A stretch of 64,000 bases of DNA from a virus (Duplodnaviria; Heunggongvirae; Uroviricota; Caudoviricetes). Positions 19,567 to 54,306 of the stretch are shown here, in pieces. The notes under the pieces are model-generated. The model did not search any database, had not been told where the DNA came from, and was given only the letters and a program-made list of their open reading frames with translations. The position numbers were made by a program, and so were the translations under genes. Each line of letters opens with the position of its first letter. Position 1 is the first letter of the stretch. Location: the IMG/VR virus record IMGVR_UViG_2541047857_000014; one strand, given 5' to 3'.

Positions 19567-20586
19567 ATGACTGTCAGAAAACAGCCAAACGGTAAATGGT
19601 TGTGCGAGTGCTATCCCAATGGACGCAATGGCAAGCGCGTGCGTAAGCAATTTGCTACGAAAGGCGAAGCCATTGCTTTTGAAAGCTTCACAATGGAAGA
19701 AGTGAACAAAAAACCATGGCTGGGGGAAAAGGAAGATCGGCGACACCTATCAGAATTAATTGAGCAGTGGTATTCCCTGTATGGTCAAACACTCGCAGAC
19801 CCCAAGCGCCTCATAGCGAAACTTAGAATTATCTGTAATGGTCTAGGCGATCCCATCGCTTCAGAACTGACAGCCGGTGACTTTACGAAATACCGCGAAG
19901 CACGGTTAAAAGGTGAAGTACGAAATGAAGATGGCACGTTTATGTCGCCCGTTAAGCCCCGCACGGTAAACCTTGAACAGCGCAATCTATCATCTGTTTT
20001 TGGTACACTGAAAAAGCTGGGCCACTGGTCAGCCCCCAACCCGCTTGCTGGGCTGCCAACATTTAAAATTGCTGAGAGTGAATTGGCGTTCCTGACCCCG
20101 GAAGAAATTAAACGTCTGCTGGATGCCTGCGCCGATTCTCAAAGCTCCAGCCTGCTTTTGATTGCAAAAATATGCCTGGCCACCGGCGCACGCTGGAGCG
20201 AAGCCGAAAACCTGCAGAGTCATCAGGTATCAAAATACCGTATCACTTATACCAAGACCAAAGGCAAGAAAAACCGAACTGTGCCTATTTCTAAGGATTT
20301 ATATGAAGAACTGCCTAAGAATAGGGGGAAGTTATTCACCCCATGCAGAAAAGCCTTTGAGCGTGCAGTAAAGCGAGCCGGTTTAGAACTACCAGAAGGC
20401 CAATGTACCCATGTTCTGCGCCATACATTTGCCAGTCATTTTATGATGAACGGTGGAAATATACTGGTACTGCGCGATATTCTTGGACATGCCGATATAA
20501 AAATGACGATGATTTACGCTCATTTTTCCCCAGATCATCTTGAAGATGCAGTAACTAAAAACCCATTAGCAACCTTGATGGATTAA
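19567..20586 (+). CDS. int: tyrosine integrase (P2/186 Int family)
   Basis: 339-aa ORF with C-terminal HVLRHTFASHFMMNGG...LGHADIKMTMIYAH catalytic motifs; adjacent to att repeat. Confidence 0.9.
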   Translation: MTVRKQPNGKWLCECYPNGRNGKRVRKQFATKGEAIAFESFTMEEVNKKPWLGEKEDRRHLSELIEQWYSLYGQTLADPKRLIAKLRIICNGLGDPIASELTAGDFTKYREARLKGEVRNEDGTFMSPVKPRTVNLEQRNLSSVFGTLKKLGHWSAPNPLAGLPTFKIAESELAFLTPEEIKRLLDACADSQSSSLLLIAKICLATGARWSEAENLQSHQVSKYRITYTKTKGKKNRTVPISKDLYEELPKNRGKLFTPCRKAFERAVKRAGLELPEGQCTHVLRHTFASHFMMNGGNILVLRDILGHADIKMTMIYAHFSPDHLEDAVTKNPLATLMD

Positions 20587-20590
20587 GCAC

Positions 20591-21814
20591 ATGCGCAACA
20601 TTATCGAATTAGAACAGATATCGGAAGAACTAAAAAAACATGAACTATTGCAACCCCCATTCATTGCCGAGGGAAAACTAATTTCTGACTTTTCTAAGAG
20701 AGTCGAGTGCTATTTAGAATTAATTGACTCCATTAGAAATAAATATCCTGACAACGAGATAATTAAACAAGTAAAGATTCGCACAAAATCAATAATATAT
20801 TTATCTGATAAAATAATAGAAACTCTTAAGCTATTTTTAATAGGAAATGTTAAAGAAGCTTATAAAAAATTCGATTTGGCAATTACCAAGTCATCAATGC
20901 ATACTCATCTTTATAAGATGACTGTTCCTCTAACTAAATTATGCAACCCACACACCCCTTTATTTCGCGTAAGGAAAAGTGAGTGCATCCTAAAACAAAG
21001 AGAAGAATTATTTCATATACCATTTAAAAATAGACATTTAGTTAGCGCACAAAGATTTTCTGTATCCGGTCTTCCATGTTTATATCTTGGAACATCAATA
21101 TTTGTATGTTGGCAAGAAATGGGAAAACCTGACTTTGATAAACTTTACATATCTTCCTTCATATCCGATAAAGAAAATTCAAATATAAGAATTTTAGATC
21201 TTGGGTACAATTTAACATCTGCACTTCGTACAAAACCGGGAGATCTTTGGTATTCATTCGAACAAGGTTCAGATGATGATTACGATCTAAATAATGATAA
21301 TTTCATGGATCAAATTAATGATAAAATTTCAAAGTTGATTGCATGGCCTTTAGTCCTTGCATGTAACTATACAAAAGATAATGAAAACGCAAGTTTTAAT
21401 AAAGAATACATAATACCAAACCTATTAATGCAATGGATTAGTAGTGACAGAAACAAAAATATATCAGGGATATCGTATCGATCAACAAAGATATTAAACC
21501 AAAAAGATAGCGATATTGGGATTAATGTAATTATCCCCCCAAAAATAGAAAACATAGTTGAAACCAATGATACCCACTGTCCTGTTTTAAAAAAAATATT
21601 TAGAGTTACAAACCCTGTTTCCTGGACTGTGTTTAGTACACTAGAAGCCACCCCCTATCTATACAAAAATAATTTTAATTTTTCGACCTATAATCCCGCA
21701 AAAGGATGGATTGAAGACTTTGATGAATCCCTTGTTGAACATTATGAAAATACCACTTTTAGAAAAGTTGAACTCCTTATTCATCAAATGATGAAGTATG
21801 AATATTTAAAATAA
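20591..21814 (+). CDS. RES-domain protein (putative NAD-targeting toxin/effector), 407 aa
   Basis: Segment LFRVRK...AQRFSVSGLPCLYLGTSIFVCWQEMG fits the RES domain pattern (R-x-FNxxG-x-P-x-LYL-x-S...E); ATG 4 nt after int stop; strongly AT-rich. Confidence 0.55.
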   Translation: MRNIIELEQISEELKKHELLQPPFIAEGKLISDFSKRVECYLELIDSIRNKYPDNEIIKQVKIRTKSIIYLSDKIIETLKLFLIGNVKEAYKKFDLAITKSSMHTHLYKMTVPLTKLCNPHTPLFRVRKSECILKQREELFHIPFKNRHLVSAQRFSVSGLPCLYLGTSIFVCWQEMGKPDFDKLYISSFISDKENSNIRILDLGYNLTSALRTKPGDLWYSFEQGSDDDYDLNNDNFMDQINDKISKLIAWPLVLACNYTKDNENASFNKEYIIPNLLMQWISSDRNKNISGISYRSTKILNQKDSDIGINVIIPPKIENIVETNDTHCPVLKKIFRVTNPVSWTVFSTLEATPYLYKNNFNFSTYNPAKGWIEDFDESLVEHYENTTFRKVELLIHQMMKYEYLK

Positions 21815-21929: not shown

Positions 21930-21975
21930 TATGTAGGAATTTCGGACGCGGGTTCAACTCCCGCCAGCTCCACCA
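21930..21975 (+). other. ssrA: 3-prime fragment of ssrA (tmRNA) forming the prophage attachment-site repeat
   Basis: atgtaggaatttcggacgcgggttcaactcccgccagctccacca matches the E. coli tmRNA 3-prime end as I recall it; no tmRNA body upstream. Confidence 0.7.
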
Positions 21976-22103
21976 ATCATGATTGGACGGTGTAAGGACA
22001 ACACCAACAAAAACAGGAAGTTAGAAGTCTCAGCAGGACACCGACCAGACGGTGAGGAGACATAAAAGGATACGCAAAGGAGCCGCGGCTCCGAAGTGAA
22101 ATG

Positions 22104-22360: not shown

Positions 22361-22558
22361 ATGGCACTGGACAGTTATGCATCTCCGAATATTATTCCGG
22401 AGCTAAGACAACCGAATGCCGCAGCAGGTAAGATCACGCTAGGGGGGCTGGACAGAATGGCTGTTACGCCCAGTGTGAAGAAAAGAAGGCTAAGTATGGT
22501 AGAATTTCCATACGCACAGACCTTGTTATCCGACTATACAGCCTGGAAGGCACTATGA
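22361..22558 (+). CDS. small hypothetical protein (65 aa), translationally coupled to downstream nuclease-like gene
   Basis: Stop overlaps the ATG of the next gene (ATGA); weak RBS. Confidence 0.35.
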   Translation: MALDSYASPNIIPELRQPNAAAGKITLGGLDRMAVTPSVKKRRLSMVEFPYAQTLLSDYTAWKAL

Positions 22559-23343
22559 CAAATCTACAACTGGAAGAAAGATTTAGGGCGCTTGAGAAAG
22601 ATTACGATGCGCTCATTTCCACAAAATATACTGCGCAGAACGTTCTCACTCACACTATGGAAACCTATGTTGATTCTGGTAAATATAAAAACTGGATCGC
22701 CAGAGTGAAAAAGTTAATAGAGGACAGCTACGGAAAAGAGTCTGATTATTACAATGACTTCAATACTGTAAACAGCAGGTGGTCTTCTAATTACAATACA
22801 CTGATCAAAAGTTATAAACCGTTGTTTGATGCGGCGAGAGATGATCTTGCGCACTCTGCTGTCAGTACTAATACTCCTCAAGAAGGTTCGCCGCTGAGCC
22901 TCGTACTTAATATTCTTAACAGGTTTCCGACCTTTGTTCGCCAGTTAAAGAGGCGGTACAACGGCCGTGCGCCGCTTGAAGTTAATGATGAGTATGACGT
23001 ACAGGATTTGATTTATGCACTGCTGACGCTTCATTTTAATGATATTAGGGCGGAAGAGTATACCCCCAGCTTTGCGGGCGCGGCCTCAAGACAGGACTTT
23101 CTTTTGAAAAAAGAGAAAATTGTGATAGAGGTGAAGAAAACCCGTGAATCTCTGGGAGCGGGTAAAGTTGGTGGAGAGTTGCTTATTGATATGGCGCGCT
23201 ACCGCGCTCACCAAGACTGCGATACGTTGATCTTGTTTGTATATGACCCGGATTGCTACATAAATAATCCTTTGGGCGTGAAAACCGATCTGGAATCTAA
23301 AGACGCGGAAGGAAAAGTGAAGGTTGTTATTGCGCAGTTCTGA
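22555..23343 (+). CDS. PD-(D/E)xK nuclease-like protein (putative), 262 aa
   Basis: C-terminal half has D...(Q)DFLL...IVIEVKK spacing typical of restriction-endonuclease-fold motifs II/III; GGAAGG RBS. Confidence 0.5.
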   Translation: MTNLQLEERFRALEKDYDALISTKYTAQNVLTHTMETYVDSGKYKNWIARVKKLIEDSYGKESDYYNDFNTVNSRWSSNYNTLIKSYKPLFDAARDDLAHSAVSTNTPQEGSPLSLVLNILNRFPTFVRQLKRRYNGRAPLEVNDEYDVQDLIYALLTLHFNDIRAEEYTPSFAGAASRQDFLLKKEKIVIEVKKTRESLGAGKVGGELLIDMARYRAHQDCDTLILFVYDPDCYINNPLGVKTDLESKDAEGKVKVVIAQF

Positions 23344-23934: not shown

Positions 23935-24759
<825 letters not shown>

Positions 24760-25156: not shown

Positions 25157-25335
25157 ATGCGTATTGAGATCTCCATAGCCAAAGACAAAATGACCAAATG
25201 CCAAACGGCGCTGTGGACGCGTTAAAGGAAGAATTAACCCAACACATTGGCAAGCGTTATGACGATGTGGAGATGATCGTAAAAGCCACCAGCAACGATA
25301 GTTTTTCAGTTAGACATACTGCAGATAAAGATTGA
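25157..25335 (+). pseudogene. DinI-like gene interrupted by a frameshift
   Basis: Frame 1 from ATG about 25157 gives [14 protein letters not shown] then stops; the -1 frame continues [37 protein letters not shown] (DinI-like); break lies in an A-run. Confidence 0.5.
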
Positions 25336-25759
25336 GCTAAAACTTTCGTTCAGGAAACTCTGAATGATACCTGAGAGTCTACTGAAGAGTTGTTTGTTCA
25401 CTAGTTAGCACGTAGGAAATCATTCAATACTCGCACTATCGGAAGTTCACCAGCCAGTCGTAGCACGTCCTTGCAAACGACGTGCCTACGGTTTCAATCA
25501 CCTCTCACCATCAATTCTATCAATAATAATTAAACAGCGCCTAGACAAAATAAATAACAACAAGTCAACAACCTCGACAGGATGCCGATGGGATGATGAA
25601 GAGATAAGAAAGAATAACCAGTAAAGCCCTAAAACGTCAGCGTTCAGACGCGTTTTTTACTTAATCGGTAACAAATACGTTGTATCATAGCAAAATAAAA
25701 TGATTGTTCTAAATCAGATTAACTCCTCACTTTTGTACAATGTCGCTTACAGGTATACC

Positions 25760-27649
25760 ATGAAATCCGAGACGCTAACTGTCCAACAACTTTTTCAAGA
25801 CCGCCGACAATACTGTGTTCCATTCTATCAACGTGCCTATGTATGGACTCAGCAAGACCAGTGGTCAGCTCTACTGGAGGATATCCTAGAGAAAGTACAA
25901 TCCCGGCTCTCGGGTACAAAACCAACTCCCCATTTCCTTGGTGCGGTTGTACTGGAACCTCAATCAAAAAAAGGATTATTAGGTGTAGATTCCATACATA
26001 TTATTGATGGTCAGCAACGATTGACCACTCTTCAATATGTTCTGGCATCCATCCGATTAGCATTACGTGCTACGGATCTTTCCAGCTTAGAGGCTCTCAT
26101 TTCGCCTTGCCTGAAAAACTCAAACGAAGACACAATGCGAAATAAAGAAGTAGAACGCTTCAAACTGTGGCCAACTTTTCGGGATCAAACTCATTTTATT
26201 CAAAGTTTTAATGTTGAAAATATTGACGATCTCCGGGACGTATTCTCTGATAGTTTCACGCAGCATGGTACGTTGCGTAAGCATTTTAATCACCCGCCAT
26301 CACTAGAAGCATTATGTTTTTTTACTGAAGCCTTTATAAAATGGATTAAAATAGAAAACCACTCACCACAAGAAAATGCTGTAGCTCTAATTGAGGCTGT
26401 CTTAACAGATCTGAAACTGGTAAGCATATTTCTCGAAGCTGAAGATGATGCCCAAATAATTTTTGAAACATTAAATGGGCGAGGGGCGGAACTTCATGCT
26501 ACGGATCTTATTCGCAACTATATCTTTATGTGCGCTGAGCATGAAAATATTAATGCTATTGAATTATATGAAAATGAGTGGAAGAGCTTTGAAGATAAAT
26601 ACTGGTCGGAAAAACAACGCCGTGGACGTATTAATAAACCACGCATGGAGTGGCTAGTACATGCGACATTGCAATCAGAAAGGCAACGTGAAATTGATCT
26701 GTCTCGCCTTTACAATGAGTATCGTGATTATGTAAGTAAGGACTTGTCTTCACAACGAGCAGATCTGCAAGTAAAGCGCCTCAAACAATATGCATCACAA
26801 TATAAAGAATTGGTTGATGGTTTTGGCACAACCCCCATCTCACACTTTGGATATCGCATCGCAGACTATGATGTGACGACACTTTATCCGCTTGCTTTGT
26901 TCATTTCGATAGCTAACATCGCTGATGATGAGAAAGCAGCCATGTATAATGATCTTGTCTCCTACGTAGTACGAAGAGCCGTATGTGGCCTGACGCCAAA
27001 GAATTACAACAATGTATTTATGAATGTATTGCGGCACTTGGCTAAAACGGAAATTTCCAGTGTTGAGTTACGTAATATCCTCAATAACTTAAATGGCGAA
27101 GCCTCACGTTGGCCTGGTGACTCAGAATTTCTCAACGCTTGCATCAATGCTCCACTTTATCCTGGCAGGCTCGACGCACCGAAAATGCGCTCAATGTTAA
27201 CGGAACTTGAAAGAGAACTTTGTCGCCAAGTAAAGACAGAAAAGCCTGATGTTCCAAATCTTTCTAATCTCGATATCGATCATCTTATGCCTCAAAGTTG
27301 GTATTCCTGTTGGCCTCTCGAAAATGGTCGTATGGTGACAAATTCAGATGCTACGGTATTGAACCAAATTGTTCTGTCTGGAACCGATCTTACCCCTGAA
27401 CAGCTACTGGTAAGGAAACGGCAACAAGCGATATCTACTTTGGGAAATCTAACTTTGCTTAACCTTAGCGTAAACCGTTCTGTTCAGAATGCTGTATTTC
27501 TGAAAAAACGTGATGCTCTCATCGTCCACACCAATCTACGACTGAACATTCCACTTATAGTTAAGGATAAATGGGATGAGGATGAAATCCTGGAGCGGGG
27601 TAAAAAGTTGGGGGAAATTGCATTGAAAGTATGGCCAAAACACGATTAA
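25760..27649 (+). CDS. fused DUF262-DUF1524 protein, GmrSD-like type IV (modification-dependent) restriction endonuclease
   Basis: N-terminal PFYQRAYVW and IIDGQQRLTTL motifs (DUF262) plus C-terminal DIDHLMPQSW His-Me-type motif (DUF1524); ORF from 25700, probable ATG at 25760. Confidence 0.8.
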   Translation: MKSETLTVQQLFQDRRQYCVPFYQRAYVWTQQDQWSALLEDILEKVQSRLSGTKPTPHFLGAVVLEPQSKKGLLGVDSIHIIDGQQRLTTLQYVLASIRLALRATDLSSLEALISPCLKNSNEDTMRNKEVERFKLWPTFRDQTHFIQSFNVENIDDLRDVFSDSFTQHGTLRKHFNHPPSLEALCFFTEAFIKWIKIENHSPQENAVALIEAVLTDLKLVSIFLEAEDDAQIIFETLNGRGAELHATDLIRNYIFMCAEHENINAIELYENEWKSFEDKYWSEKQRRGRINKPRMEWLVHATLQSERQREIDLSRLYNEYRDYVSKDLSSQRADLQVKRLKQYASQYKELVDGFGTTPISHFGYRIADYDVTTLYPLALFISIANIADDEKAAMYNDLVSYVVRRAVCGLTPKNYNNVFMNVLRHLAKTEISSVELRNILNNLNGEASRWPGDSEFLNACINAPLYPGRLDAPKMRSMLTELERELCRQVKTEKPDVPNLSNLDIDHLMPQSWYSCWPLENGRMVTNSDATVLNQIVLSGTDLTPEQLLVRKRQQAISTLGNLTLLNLSVNRSVQNAVFLKKRDALIVHTNLRLNIPLIVKDKWDEDEILERGKKLGEIALKVWPKHD

Positions 27650-27662
27650 TGCAATTAATAAA

Positions 27663-27692
27663 ATGATTATAGTGGCCTTACATTAGTAAGGC
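27663..27692 (+). terminator. hairpin downstream of GmrSD-like gene
   Basis: agtggccttac atta gtaaggccgctact inverted repeat directly after the stop codon. Confidence 0.4.
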
Positions 27693-29379
27693 CGCTACTC
27701 ACTATTAAATACTTTAATTTGCATCAAGAACAGCAGTGTCAGCCCTAGGTCTCGGACTTTGTACCGCTTATCTTGTCTTCAAAAATCAGCTCGCATCCTG
27801 CACAGTTCAGCGCATTACGTTGTAGATCTGTGTTCTGGTCATTTGTTGACACACGTACATAGCCAATAAGCATGGTAGATCTCCCTGACAAAAGCAGGAA
27901 TGATGCCATTTGCTCGTTATTTCTGCATTTTCATAAACGTTGGTTTGGGAGAAGCGGCTACACTGCATGTGGGCAACCGTGATCAACAAATCTCTGATAT
28001 ACCTTCCACGAGGTTGCCGGGTGGCAATGGAAATTTTGTGATTCGTCAACCTGACGGGCTACTCGTACAGATTGATCCGACAAATAAAAGCCCTCATTTG
28101 GGGATTGATGTTATTACTGACTATGATGATGGCATCGGAGTTGATAAAAGGTCTGCTGTTGCGTCAGCAACATTGCCATCTGTAGGTACTTTTAATGTGG
28201 TGCGAGTTATCCTCCCGGTAACAACAAGAGGTTCTGGTGCTAAATCCAGCAATACAGTAGGTTTATGAGCGACCACTGTTAGCACTACTGTCGGTGTCAG
28301 TGGTGATAAGTCCATTTCGGGTAAAGTCGCCATTCCACTCGACGATACCTTTCCATGCAATACTAGCTTCACAGATATCGTGATTGCAGGATAATAGTTA
28401 AAGCAGTATTAAATTCAGCCGTTATTACAAGTTTGGATGGGCAAGTAATCGTTCAAAACTATGAGGGTGAAGGACCGGTTTCTGTTTCCGTTATAGAAAA
28501 TTATATTGACGTATGTGTGGATATTCTGGGTTATCCCCCACTGGGTGCAGAAATTAGAGCTAACGCTGGTGGTCGGCTCTTATGGTTTGATTACCTACCC
28601 TCATGAAAAGATGTGCAAGTGTTGCCCGCTGAAATCAAATATAACACTGAAACGTGAGAAGTAAATACAAACACCAAACCGGGTCATTGGCCTGGCAATG
28701 CTACCACTAGTGGTCTGATAAGCCCAGAACAGAAATAAGATGATTAGTAACGGGATAACCTTAATGCGGTAGAACTTAGCGCTGCATCCGGTGCGCCAGA
28801 AACACAATGTCAGACACCTCCTGAAGCTGAAACCGCATGAAACGCGGCGCTGTAGCTGTAATTATTGGCGGCACCGCGTCTGATGCAGGCAGCAAAGACC
28901 TAAGCCAGCGCTTTTCTGCCTTCATTAGCCGCGGTGAGGCCTGCAAATACCAGTGAAGCACCGGGATTGATGCGATCGGAACATCAATAAGTGTCGGCCG
29001 TTCTACTTCTGCCGCACCGGATGTAGCGACATGTTCTAGCGCGGCCTGGGTCTCCCACCTCGCACTATACCACTTCACTTCCTGGCTTATCGGAGGACCA
29101 GTAGTAGCTTTGTCGGGCTAATCATGCGTTGCTGTGTTGTTTTTTACTTCTGAAATTTCGGAGTTTTATTCGATTTCAGCGGGCTACACCGGCACATCTT
29201 CCCAAGAATTTGGGGACTCAGTACAACCTAGAGCACAACCACTGTTATGGACACTTGGTTTATCTACTGAAGGATAAGCAAGAAAATGCTCATATGTTGC
29301 TATGGTTATATTAATAGTAGAATCATAAAGCCTACCCGCATCATCATAGTCTGAAACGGTTACATCCAGATAATAACTA

Positions 29380-53300: not shown

Positions 53301-53623
53301 ACTTTCAGGCCCCTCTCATGTAACCAGTGGGCTGCACGCAGCCTGGCGTTTTCCTTACCGGCAAGCAGTGAGCGGATAATCCCGACCGCCTCGCTGTCGT
53401 CGTCCTTCACCGCGGTATGAAGAGTGATACCCCGGGCCACGCCACGCTTTATCGTGATGACGCCTTTTTTCTCCAGTGCTCGAAGATGCTCCACCGCTGC
53501 ATTCACTGAACGGTATCCCAGCATGGTTGCCACCTCCTGATTGGTTGGCGGGAAGCCACGTTCTTTCTGATAAGAAATCAGCATATCCAGCACCTGCTGC
53601 TGGCATTGAGTTAACGTCGTCAT
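53297..53623 (-). CDS. LexA-type winged-helix DNA-binding protein
   Basis: LTQCQQQVLDMLISYQKERGFPPTNQEVATMLGYRSVNAAVEHLRALEKKG resembles the LexA N-terminal domain. Confidence 0.5.
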   Translation of the reverse strand: MTTLTQCQQQVLDMLISYQKERGFPPTNQEVATMLGYRSVNAAVEHLRALEKKGVITIKRGVARGITLHTAVKDDDSEAVGIIRSLLAGKENARLRAAHWLHERGLKV

Positions 53624-54306
53624 GCCGCCATCTCCCTGAGCAGTTTTTCCGCCTGCTGGCGAACCTGCGCCAGAAACGCCTCACCACATGCCTCAAGTTC
53701 ATCGCGCCCGATGTAGCTGATTGCCGGTCCCTTCCAGGTCTTGTCAAAAACAGCAATAGCACCAGCGAAGAAAGCTCCTGTCGGCACCTGCTTCTCGTCT
53801 TTCGGGATAAACCAGACAGGCAGTTCAAAACCAATACGCCCGCGAATAAAAGCAATATGATCTGCATCTTCCGGCCACCACACTTCGCTGGTGGCAGCTT
53901 TGATCAGGAAAACATAGCGCCCGCCTTTATCACGCATGGCACTGGCATGCTTCATGATGTAACGCATGCCGGTGATGTATTGCCCCTCATGCTGACTGGC
54001 GCGGCTGTATGGGGGATTACCAAAGGCAGCACCTTTAAGCTCCGCAAGACGTTCTGACCAGTCATGCGCCAGCGCATTGTCTTCCGCCGTGTAATACGCG
54101 GCACATTTGGCGTTACCACCGTCGGTGAACAGATCCAGAACAAACGGGCCAAACAGGGTGTTAATTCCCCAGAAAATGTTGTCCGGCGTGCGCCACTGAT
54201 CGCCCACTTCCTTCAGTTCATGGGCTGGTTTGTTCCGCAGCTCCACCAGCGCCTGGCAATATTTATTACTCATTAAGCCCCCACGTAATTCCCTGACAGA
54301 TACCAC
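53620..54306 (-). CDS. phage N6-adenine DNA methyltransferase
   Basis: FGNPPY motif and size typical of phage Dam-type MTases; probable ATG at about 54273. Confidence 0.7.
   Translation of the reverse strand: MVSVRELRGGLMSNKYCQALVELRNKPAHELKEVGDQWRTPDNIFWGINTLFGPFVLDLFTDGGNAKCAAYYTAEDNALAHDWSERLAELKGAAFGNPPYSRASQHEGQYITGMRYIMKHASAMRDKGGRYVFLIKAATSEVWWPEDADHIAFIRGRIGFELPVWFIPKDEKQVPTGAFFAGAIAVFDKTWKGPAISYIGRDELEACGEAFLAQVRQQAEKLLREMAA

What the first reader, a model, noticed from the sequence alone, without database searches (positions are those of the whole stretch)
25700..27649. GmrSD-like fused DUF262-DUF1524 type IV restriction enzyme
Both halves carry the defining motifs (QR...W and DGQQRLTTL; DIDHLMPQSW). 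This is a known class of modification-dependent restriction enzyme. It is of interest here because of where it sits: next to two phage-borne adenine methyltransferases and several nuclease candidates, and followed by its own terminator.
Basis: partly seen in the sequence, partly recalled or inferred. Interest (0 to 1): 0.4.

Follow-up and report, generated by a model that had tools for sequence, protein, structure and literature searches.

The report
Known GmrSD restriction enzyme (UTI89 allele)

Summary
The ORF and its motifs are real. The window is 100% identical to E. coli S88. The protein, read from the correct start at 25760 (629 aa, not 649), is identical at 629/629 residues to the published UTI89GmrSD (UTI89_C2960, the "UT enzyme"). 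It is 93.0% identical to the biochemically characterised Eco94GmrSD, and all mutagenesis-defined catalytic residues (D507, H508, N522) are conserved. Pfam GmrSD_N and GmrSD_C and a PADLOC type IV REase model (1415 bits) all match. It is therefore a known, single-chain, modification-dependent (hmC/glucosyl-hmC) type IV restriction enzyme.

The context claims are only loosely right. The two adenine methyltransferases lie 9 kb and 26 kb away, in two different prophages, and are not partners of the enzyme. The "terminator" is a strong, conserved 12-bp hairpin with no U-tract.

New detail from this work:
- The gene travels as a 2.5-kb cassette (leader, gmrSD, hairpin, truncated pin invertase) at the tail-fibre end of e14/SfII-like prophages.
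- This is the slot that mcrA occupies in K-12 e14.
- The cassette sits beside other defence genes (PD-T4-3 and a DpnII/MboI-type nuclease-domain protein).
- The alleles are recombination mosaics, with most divergence in the N-terminal 160 codons.

Interest is low.

The parts
25760..27649 (+). gmrSD coding sequence (629 aa; WP_000834402.1; identical to UTI89_C2960 / EcoUTI89GmrSD)
   Evidence: RefSeq CDS in S88 and UTI89. 629/629 identity to the published UTI89GmrSD. PADLOC mREase_IV 1415 bits, aligned 21-649 of the long ORF to 1-629 of the model.
25700..25759 (+). In-frame upstream extension of the ORF; not part of the protein
   Evidence: In-frame stop in this stretch in alleles L009 and L010. 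No Shine-Dalgarno sequence before 25700. The family models start at M21.
25416..25759 (+). Conserved 5' leader of the cassette (presumed promoter region; includes a TACAAT -10-like hexamer at 25736-25741)
   Evidence: Homology among four unrelated chromosomal loci starts at 25416 (L008, L009) or 25549 (L010). The promoter assignment is inference only: the scan found no strong sigma-70 site here.
25781..26527 (+). GmrSD_N / DUF262 domain (ParB/Srx-like NTPase), with FYQRAYVW at 25823-25846 and DGQQRLTTL at 26006-26032
   Evidence: Pfam PF03235, 7.2e-34, residues 28-276 of the 649-aa ORF, covering the full profile 1-199. Motif positions.
27110..27616 (+). GmrSD_C / DUF1524 His-Me (HNH) nuclease domain. 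DIDHLMPQSW at 27272-27301; D507-H508 at 27278-27283; N522 at 27323-27325; LGNLTLLNLSVN, NAVFLKKR and W..W motifs follow
   Evidence: Pfam PF07510, 3.8e-20, residues 471-639. D507, H508, N522, N528 and N535 are identical to Eco94GmrSD, in which D507A, H508A and N522A abolish cleavage (PMC4437046). Motif definitions from PMC4619093.
27670..27697 (.). 12-bp hairpin (TAGTGGCCTTAC-ATTA-GTAAGGCCGCTA) between the convergent gmrSD and the pin remnant; no U-tract
   Evidence: 81-nt fold -26.2 kcal/mol, z = -6.8, 0 of 200 shuffles as stable. Core stem conserved in all four alleles. Not called by the terminator scan.
27751..27873 (-). Remnant of the pin invertase gene (first 41 codons only), the right-hand border of the cassette
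   Evidence: Annotated as a partial recombinase. Its 41 residues are identical to the N-terminus of K-12 PinE, then a stop. e14 homology ends at window 27752, which is nt 122 of pinE. The same truncated pin follows gmrSD at all four loci, and the junction is present in 286 genomes.

Best explanation
Window 25760-27649 encodes the 'UT' allele of GmrSD. This is a single-chain type IV (modification-dependent) restriction endonuclease carried as accessory cargo at the tail-fibre end of an e14/SfII-like myovirus prophage in E. coli S88.

Mechanism, by homology with the 93%-identical Eco94GmrSD and the wider family: the N-terminal DUF262 (ParB/Srx-like) domain binds and hydrolyses NTP through the DGQQR motif. 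The C-terminal DUF1524 His-Me finger (D507-H508...N522) cuts incoming phage DNA that carries 5-hydroxymethylcytosine or its glycosylated forms. Unmodified host DNA is spared, so no cognate methylase is needed.

The UT allele is the published variant that is insensitive to the T4 injected inhibitor IPI*. It restricts T2, T6 and RB69 but not T4.

Shown here: gene identity, intact motifs, architecture, genomic position and distribution. Taken from the literature: phage restriction phenotype and catalytic residues. Inferred: that the S88 copy is expressed and active, and how NTP hydrolysis is coupled to cleavage.
For: - The window is 100% identical to S88, and the gene is 100% identical in UTI89, S88, IHE3034, NU14 and ATCC 11775.
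- The translation equals the published UTI89GmrSD at 629/629 residues and is 93.0% identical to Eco94GmrSD, with D505, D507, H508, N522, N528, N535, E271, E273, E278 and K280 all conserved.
- Pfam GmrSD_N and GmrSD_C both match, as does PADLOC mREase_IV at 1415 bits over its full length.
- Literature: Eco94GmrSD is an ATP-stimulated nuclease on hmC and glc-hmC DNA, and D507A, H508A and N522A are dead (PMC4437046). The UT enzyme is IPI*-insensitive and restricts T2 and T6 but not T4, and restricts RB69 (PMC6024577). Strain UTI89 itself restricts some T-even phages.
- The gene is intact in about 300 of 5426 complete E. coli genomes, with dN/dS of about 0.15-0.17 overall, which indicates purifying selection.
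Against: - The purified UTI89_C2960 protein showed no nuclease or binding activity in vitro on T4, T2 or T6 DNA, or on modified 20-mers, under many conditions (supplement of PMC4437046). So the biochemical mechanism has never been shown for this allele.
- The primary paper for the in vivo phenotype (Rifat et al. 2008) could not be read here. The phenotype is cited second-hand.
- No expression data exist for S88, and no strong sigma-70 consensus promoter was found upstream.
Confidence: 0.93

Rival explanations
1. The gene is an intact but enzymatically inert or partner-dependent relic. The UT allele alone does not cleave DNA, and the restriction seen in UTI89 comes from another system, for example the second GmrSD homologue UTI89_C5048 or the adjacent PD-T4-3 GIY-YIG nuclease.
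For: - The purified UT protein was inactive in vitro under all conditions tried.
- UTI89 has a second, uncharacterised GmrSD homologue.
- A full-length PD-T4-3 gene lies 1 kb upstream.
Against: - He et al. and Thomas et al. attribute restriction of T2, T6 and RB69 to the UT enzyme itself.
- All catalytic and NTP-binding residues are intact.
- Purifying selection acts across the alleles.
- The cassette moves without any constant partner gene. Its upstream neighbours differ at all four loci, so an obligatory adjacent partner is unlikely.
- In vitro inactivity is common for this toxic, GroEL-associated family.
Confidence: 0.05
2. It belongs to a different functional subtype of the DUF262-DUF1524 superfamily (SspE-like, sensing phosphorothioate, or BrxU-like, with broad 5mC/hmC specificity) rather than to the glc-hmC-directed GmrSD clade.
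For: Weak PADLOC hits to SspE models (58 bits and lower, N-terminal 120 residues only) and to Orf5 and HEC-06 models.
Against: - The best model scores 1415 bits against 58 bits for SspE.
- The protein is identical to the UT enzyme and 93% identical to Eco94/CT596 GmrSD.
- There are no sspABCD, dnd or BREX genes anywhere in the 64-kb window.
Confidence: 0.01
3. It forms a functional restriction-modification unit with the phage adenine methyltransferases in the window.
For: Two N6-adenine MTase genes are present in the window.
Against: - They lie 9 kb and 26 kb away, in the early or replication regions of two different prophages.
- The gmrSD cassette occurs at other loci without them. In MS1679, for example, it sits directly next to icdC'.
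- By definition a type IV enzyme attacks modified DNA and needs no protective methylase (established knowledge; PMC12707154).
Confidence: 0.01

Closest known systems
EcoUTI89GmrSD (UTI89_C2960, 'UT enzyme'; Rifat et al. 2008; He et al. 2015, PMC4437046)
   Same: Identical protein (629/629) and identical DNA. The local context is also the same from the ssrA 3' end through the prophage, at 98.7-99.4% identity.
   Different: In S88 an additional P2-family prophage has integrated into ssrA. The gmrSD region is therefore separated from the intact ssrA by about 34 kb and begins at a 46-nt ssrA repeat at 21931-21976.
Eco94GmrSD / EcoCT596GmrSD (the biochemically characterised prototype clade)
   Same: 93.0% amino-acid identity, the same length, the same D-H-N catalytic triad and ExEx4ExK residues, and the same prophage-borne setting.
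   Different: There are 44 substitutions, 29 of them in the first 160 residues. In that block dS is 0.72, against 0.04-0.06 in the C-terminal half. The prototype is inhibited by T4 IPI* and restricts T4 ip1- phage. The UT allele is IPI*-insensitive and does not restrict T4.
BrxU (GmrSD-family enzyme embedded in BREX; crystal structure) and PDB 9jfl (DUF262 protein)
   Same: The same two-domain DUF262 + DUF1524 architecture. BrxU has NTP-stimulated cleavage of modified cytosine DNA.
   Different: Sequence similarity is very remote. Only 9jfl is detectable by phmmer (E = 3.5e-8, N-terminal domain only), and BrxU is not detected even at E <= 10. There is no BREX context here.
EcoKMcrA in K-12 cryptic prophage e14
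   Same: It is also a type IV, HNH-type, modified-cytosine-dependent enzyme. It occupies the same slot, immediately distal to pin at the tail-fibre end of an e14-family prophage and next to the att site. In strain MS1679 gmrSD sits at the icd att site exactly where mcrA sits in K-12.
   Different: The protein is unrelated outside the HNH idea. mcrA is co-directional with an intact pinE. gmrSD is convergent with a pin truncated after codon 41.

Membership tests
GmrSD family type IV restriction endonucleases | N-terminal DUF262/GmrSD_N (ParB/Srx-like) domain with the near-invariant DGQQR motif | tested here: met
   PF03235 at 7.2e-34 over the full profile. IIDGQQRLTTL is at residues 81-91. The motif definition is from PMC4619093.
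GmrSD family type IV restriction endonucleases | C-terminal DUF1524/GmrSD_C His-Me finger with (I/L/V)(E/D)H(I/L/V)xPQ, L(G/A)NLxLLxxxN and NxxFxxKK motifs | tested here: met
   PF07510 at 3.8e-20. IDHLMPQ, LGNLTLLNLSVN and NAVFLKKR can be read directly in the translation, with motif definitions.
GmrSD family type IV restriction endonucleases | Catalytic residues shown by mutagenesis in Eco94GmrSD (D507, H508, N522) are intact | tested here: met
   All are identical at the same positions. The mutagenesis is reported in PMC4437046.
GmrSD family type IV restriction endonucleases | Single polypeptide with both domains joined by a helical linker | tested here: met
   The domains fall at residues 28-276 and 471-639 of one uninterrupted ORF, with a linker of about 195 aa.
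GmrSD family type IV restriction endonucleases | Solitary gene with no cognate methyltransferase (type IV) | tested here: met
   The conserved cassette 25416-27954 holds only gmrSD and the pin remnant. The nearest MTases are 9 kb and 26 kb away in other functional modules.
GmrSD family type IV restriction endonucleases | NTP-stimulated cleavage of hmC or glucosyl-hmC DNA but not of unmodified DNA | not testable with these tools
   This has been shown for Eco94GmrSD. The purified UT protein was inactive in vitro, so it is unproven for this allele.
GmrSD family type IV restriction endonucleases | Restriction of T-even phages in vivo | not testable with these tools
   Reported for the identical UTI89 protein: it restricts T2, T6 and RB69 but not T4, and is IPI*-insensitive. 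The primary paper is not held.
GmrSD family type IV restriction endonucleases | Three-dimensional fold: ParB/Srx-like N-domain plus beta-beta-alpha-metal C-domain | not tested
   No structure prediction was run, because sequence identity to a published member made it unnecessary. The only PDB sequence relative is 9jfl, covering the N-domain at E = 3.5e-8.
SspE (phosphorothioate-sensing DUF262-DUF1524 nuclease) | Strong match to SspE models and linkage to sspABCD | tested here: not met
   The best SspE model scores 58 bits over the N-terminal 120 residues only, against 1415 bits for mREase_IV. No ssp or dnd genes are in the window.
BrxU (BREX-embedded GmrSD) | Embedded in a BREX locus | tested here: not met
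   No BREX genes are annotated in the 64-kb window or at the three other loci examined.

The most novel reading that the evidence does not exclude
The 2.5-kb unit made of leader, gmrSD, hairpin and truncated pin is a discrete cargo cassette. It fills a conserved 'pin-distal' defence slot of e14-family prophages, the slot that holds mcrA in K-12. Its insertion destroyed the invertase and so locked the tail-fibre switch. Its N-terminal 160-300 codons are exchanged between alleles by recombination, which is how the enzyme escapes injected inhibitors such as IPI*. By analogy with the 2025 finding that Ip2 and Ip3 each block a distinct GmrSD subtype, T4's unexplained immunity to the UT allele could be due to Ip2 or Ip3.
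Probability: 0.45. Interest if true: 0.3.

Novelty: already known. Interest (0 to 1): 0.1.

Why it matters
The gene itself adds nothing new. It is a literature reference member of a well-studied defence family, and the exact protein has been cloned, purified and tested against phages.

The small residual value is in three points.
- No biochemical activity has ever been shown for this IPI*-resistant allele.
- What protects T4 from it remains unexplained, and is now testable given that T4 Ip2 and Ip3 inhibit other GmrSD subtypes (PMC12373910).
- The cassette, slot and mosaic structure seen here gives a concrete map for chimera experiments to locate the determinant of inhibitor sensitivity.

For phage therapy against ST95 ExPEC (S88, UTI89, APEC O1/O18), this gene and the adjacent PD-T4-3 are a predictable barrier to T-even-like phages.

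Tried and rejected
1. Assumed the window was UTI89 and mapped coordinates on it. BLAST showed collinearity only from 21931 rightwards. The window is S88, with an extra P2-family prophage on the left.

2. Looked for a canonical intrinsic terminator after the gene. The scan found none. The hairpin is strong but lacks a U-tract.

3. Suspected a terminator-like stem plus T-run upstream at about 25632-25668 that would insulate the cassette. The fold is no better than shuffles (z = 0.41), so this was rejected.

4. Looked for a second copy of the ssrA att repeat inside the window to delimit the e14-like prophage. Only one copy exists, at 21931-21976. The other, a 195-nt repeat at 89.8% identity, lies beyond the right end of the window, after the integrase and three cargo genes (UTI89 coordinates).

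5. Tested whether the N-terminal clustering of substitutions reflects positive selection. dN/dS there is only 0.14, while dS is about ten times higher than in the C-terminal half. The signal is recombination mosaicism, not elevated dN/dS.

6. Tried to read the primary Black-laboratory papers (PMC2255585, PMC1868451, PMC1855630). None is held.

7. Searched the phage collection for the gene and found no match. It is known only from prophages in chromosomes, not from sequenced free phages.

8. NCBIfam has no model for it.

9. Did not spend the large protein-database searches or structure prediction, because identity to a published protein settles the question.
Full report
**Observation.** The window holds an uninterrupted ORF at 25700..27649 on the + strand, 649 aa. 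Pfam assigns GmrSD_N (PF03235, 7.2e-34, full profile) to residues 28-276 and GmrSD_C (PF07510, 3.8e-20) to residues 471-639. A PADLOC model named 'Type IV methyl-directed restriction enzyme' (PDLC03655) scores 1415 bits, and its 629 positions align end to end with residues 21-649. NCBIfam has no model.

**Start codon.** The real start is the ATG at 25760, giving 629 aa.
- RefSeq annotates it so in S88 and UTI89.
- The published family members are 629 aa.
- The 629-aa form is on record from at least 1000 contigs, against 21 for the 649-aa form.
- An AGG lies 7-9 nt upstream of 25760, and nothing comparable precedes 25700.
- Decisively, two divergent alleles have an in-frame TAA inside the 60-nt extension.

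**Identity of the sequence.** The gene is 100% identical in many ST95-type extraintestinal pathogenic E. coli (UTI89, S88, IHE3034, NU14, APEC O18, PMV-1) and in the type strain ATCC 11775. It occurs in 306 of 5426 complete E. coli genomes, always on the chromosome. By identity, 151 are at >=99%, 72 at 95-99% and 83 at 90-95%. It is absent from 50,697 phage records. The left 22 kb of the window is 100% identical only to S88, MS7163 and N53, so the window is S88 NC_011742.1 2810406-2874405.

**It is a published protein.** He et al. 2015 (PMC4437046) describe 'UTI89_C2960, EcoUTI89GmrSD or UT enzyme' as a fused single-chain GmrSD that is 93% identical to their Eco94GmrSD. Their Fig. S1 prints the sequence. 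I assembled that printed sequence and compared it with the translation of 25760-27649. The two are identical at 629 of 629 residues.

Against Eco94GmrSD there are 44 differences (93.0% identity). D505, D507, H508, N522, N528, N535, E271, E273, E278 and K280 are all unchanged. In Eco94GmrSD the D507A, H508A and N522A variants have no endonuclease activity. The further GmrD motifs defined by Machnicka et al. 2015 (PMC4619093) are all readable in the sequence: (I/L/V)(E/D)H(I/L/V)xPQ, L(G/A)NLxLLxxxN, NxxFxxKK and the terminal W...W motif. That paper also uses the 'E. coli GmrSD UT protein' as its reference.

**What is known about its function (literature, not tested here).**
- Eco94GmrSD is an ATP-stimulated, Mg/Mn-dependent endonuclease on hmC- and glucosyl-hmC DNA. 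It restricts T4 delta-ip1 more than 10^6-fold.
- The UT enzyme is insensitive to the T4 injected inhibitor IPI*. It restricts neither T4 nor T4 ip1-, but it restricts T2 and T6 and RB69, whose DNA carries arabinosyl-hmC (PMC6024577).
- Rao and Black summarise it as a homologue that 'has evolved IPI* inhibitor immunity' (PMC3012670).
- The purified UT protein was monomeric and folded, but inactive on every substrate and condition tried (supplement). The catalytic mechanism is therefore inferred from the 93%-identical paralogue, not shown for this allele.
- Silas et al. 2025 (PMC12373910) showed that T4 Ip1, Ip2 and Ip3 each block one distinct GmrSD subtype. They did not test the UT allele.

**Context.** In S88 the layout, in window coordinates, is as follows.
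- Bases 1-21930 are the right two-thirds of a P2-family prophage integrated into ssrA. The intact ssrA lies 12.1 kb to the left of the window.
  - AIPR/AbiU-like gene at 561-2261.
  - Full-length PD-T7-1 match at 11127-12536 (-).
  - D12-class Dam methylase at 15881-16738 (-).
  - Frameshifted replication endonuclease at 13444-15884.
  - Integrase at 19567-20586.
  - An unassignable 407-aa ORF at 20591-21814.
- At 21931-21976 the last 46 nt of ssrA are repeated. From there the sequence is what follows ssrA directly in UTI89.
- A small low-GC stretch follows (43.5% GC), with these genes:
  - a 262-aa protein with a C-terminal REase_DpnII-MboI domain at 22555-23343;
  - a 97-aa ORF;
  - a GIY-YIG protein at 23935-24708 (-) that matches the PD-T4-3 defence model over its full length (453 bits);
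  - a DinI-like pseudogene.
- Then comes gmrSD (41.2% GC), followed by the hairpin, a 41-codon remnant of pin, and the tail-fibre, baseplate, tail, head, lysis, regulation and integrase genes of a myovirus prophage (51.3% GC). That prophage extends to the integrase at 61882-63054.
- He et al. call this an SfII-like prophage and could not induce it. Many of its genes carry e14 names, and large blocks are 95-98% identical to K-12 e14.
- The second methyltransferase, a phage N6-adenine MTase, is at 53620-54273 (-) in the early region.

The two methyltransferases are therefore 9 kb and 26 kb from gmrSD, in two different prophages. They are ordinary orphan phage methylases and have no functional tie to a type IV enzyme.

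**The cassette and its slot (new here, modest).** I compared four loci that carry alleles of decreasing identity:
- S88/UTI89, downstream of ssrA;
- Res13-Sevr, near ykgR (96.7%);
- TBE6, next to a retron Ec67 and a Zorya system (93.6%);
- MS1679, at icd (93.3%).

Homology always starts 210-340 nt upstream of the start codon (window 25416 or 25549). It always runs through the gene, the hairpin and the pin remnant to about 27954. The upstream neighbours differ completely between loci. A probe spanning the gmrSD 3' end, hairpin and pin remnant is covered at >=80% in 286 genomes, close to the roughly 300 that have a full-length gene. About 1600 further genomes match only the pin part.

In K-12 e14 the gene order is stf/tfa, pinE, mcrA, attR(icdC). 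Homology between e14 and the window stops at nt 122 of pinE, which is window 27752. In MS1679 the order is icdC', gmrSD, pin', tail fibres. That is the same att site and the same slot, with gmrSD in place of mcrA. Two unrelated type IV enzymes are therefore alternative cargo at the pin-distal end of e14-family prophages, and the gmrSD version comes with a destroyed invertase.

**Allele structure.** Between S88 and the Eco94-like allele of MS1679:

| Codons | dS | dN | dN/dS |
|---|---|---|---|
| 1-160 | 0.72 | 0.10 | 0.14 |
| 161-300 | 0.22 | 0.009 | 0.04 |
| 301-470 | 0.04 | 0.018 | 0.41 |
| 471-629 | 0.06 | 0.019 | 0.34 |

The Res13-Sevr allele has a UT-like N-terminus but a divergent 161-300 block (dS 0.35). 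A tenfold jump in synonymous divergence is the signature of recombination between diverged alleles, not of locally elevated dN/dS. Because 29 of the 44 UT/Eco94 amino-acid differences fall in residues 1-160, this swapped block is the obvious candidate for the IPI* sensitivity determinant. That is an inference.

**Downstream hairpin.** Bases 27670-27697 form a perfect 12-bp stem with an ATTA loop. The 81-nt fold is -26.2 kcal/mol, z = -6.8. The core stem is conserved in all four alleles. No U-run follows on either strand, and the consensus scan does not call it. It lies between convergent genes, exactly in the 100-nt interval between the gmrSD stop and the pin breakpoint. It may terminate or stabilise the transcript, but 'its own terminator' is not established.

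**Comparison and membership.** Every sequence-level defining feature of the GmrSD family was tested and met: both domains, DGQQR, the D/E-H...N...N motif, single-chain architecture and no cognate methylase. The biochemical and phenotypic features cannot be tested with these tools and rest on the literature for the identical protein. The SspE and BrxU subtypes were considered and rejected: SspE scores 58 bits against 1415, and there are no ssp, dnd or BREX genes. No member of this clade has a solved structure. The only PDB sequence relative is 9jfl, matching the N-domain at E = 3.5e-8.

**Verdict.** Interest is low (0.1). The by-products are the corrected start, the cassette boundaries, the shared slot with mcrA, the allele mosaic and the surrounding defence genes. 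These are useful annotations, not discoveries.

Noticed in passing
window 23935-24708 (-): The GIY-YIG (LEM-3-like) protein 1 kb upstream of gmrSD is a full-length match to the PADLOC PD-T4-3 defence model (453 bits, 1-255 of 256). Two anti-T-even defences therefore sit side by side.
   Followed up: partly
window 22555-23343 (+): A 262-aa protein, annotated in S88 as a PD-(D/E)XK nuclease. Its C-terminal 145 residues match Pfam REase_DpnII-MboI (165 bits) and PADLOC Argonaute-associated 'Aga_Helical-REase' models (92 bits). The N-terminal 116 residues are unassigned. It is solitary, with no adjacent methylase or Argonaute.
   Followed up: partly
window 27751-27873 (-), K-12 e14 (L007 14186-15680) and MS1679 (L010 6010-9115): gmrSD and mcrA occupy the same pin-distal slot of e14-family prophages. 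In MS1679, gmrSD sits at the icd att site where K-12 has mcrA. The gmrSD version always comes with pin truncated after codon 41, which should lock the tail-fibre inversion switch.
   Followed up: partly
window 25760-26660 (codons 1-300 of gmrSD): The alleles are recombination mosaics. dS is 0.72 in codons 1-160 against 0.04-0.06 in codons 301-629 between the UT and Eco94-type alleles. A third allele (L008) combines a UT-like N-terminus with a divergent 161-300 block.
   Followed up: partly
window 1-21976: A P2-family prophage is integrated in ssrA in tandem with the gmrSD-bearing prophage. The attR is a 46-nt ssrA repeat at 21931-21976. The replication endonuclease gene (13444-15884) is frameshifted, so the prophage is probably defective. 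It carries an AIPR/AbiU-like gene (561-2261) and a full-length PD-T7-1 match (11127-12536).
   Followed up: partly
window 20591-21814 (+): A 407-aa ORF between the P2-family integrase and attR. This is a typical cargo position, but it has no Pfam or PADLOC match.
   Followed up: no
window 63046-63645 (-) and 63674-64000 (-): To the right of the e14-like prophage integrase, before the distal ssrA-like repeat that lies outside the window, there are a 199-aa ORF with no family match, a STAS-like domain protein, and (beyond the window) a 303-aa hypothetical protein. This may be another cargo or defence cluster.
   Followed up: no
E. coli MS20654 (H1) and APEC O1 (H37): Natural disruptions of the same gene. 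In MS20654 an IS3 element splits it into a DUF262 part and an HNH part. In APEC O1 the 99.9% copy aligns over 1891 nt, one base longer than the 1890-nt query, and is reported as 604 aa.
   Followed up: no
window 25157-25374 (+) and 12858-13091 (-): There are two DinI-like genes. The one upstream of gmrSD is a pseudogene (frameshift and internal stop). The one in the P2-family prophage is intact.
   Followed up: no
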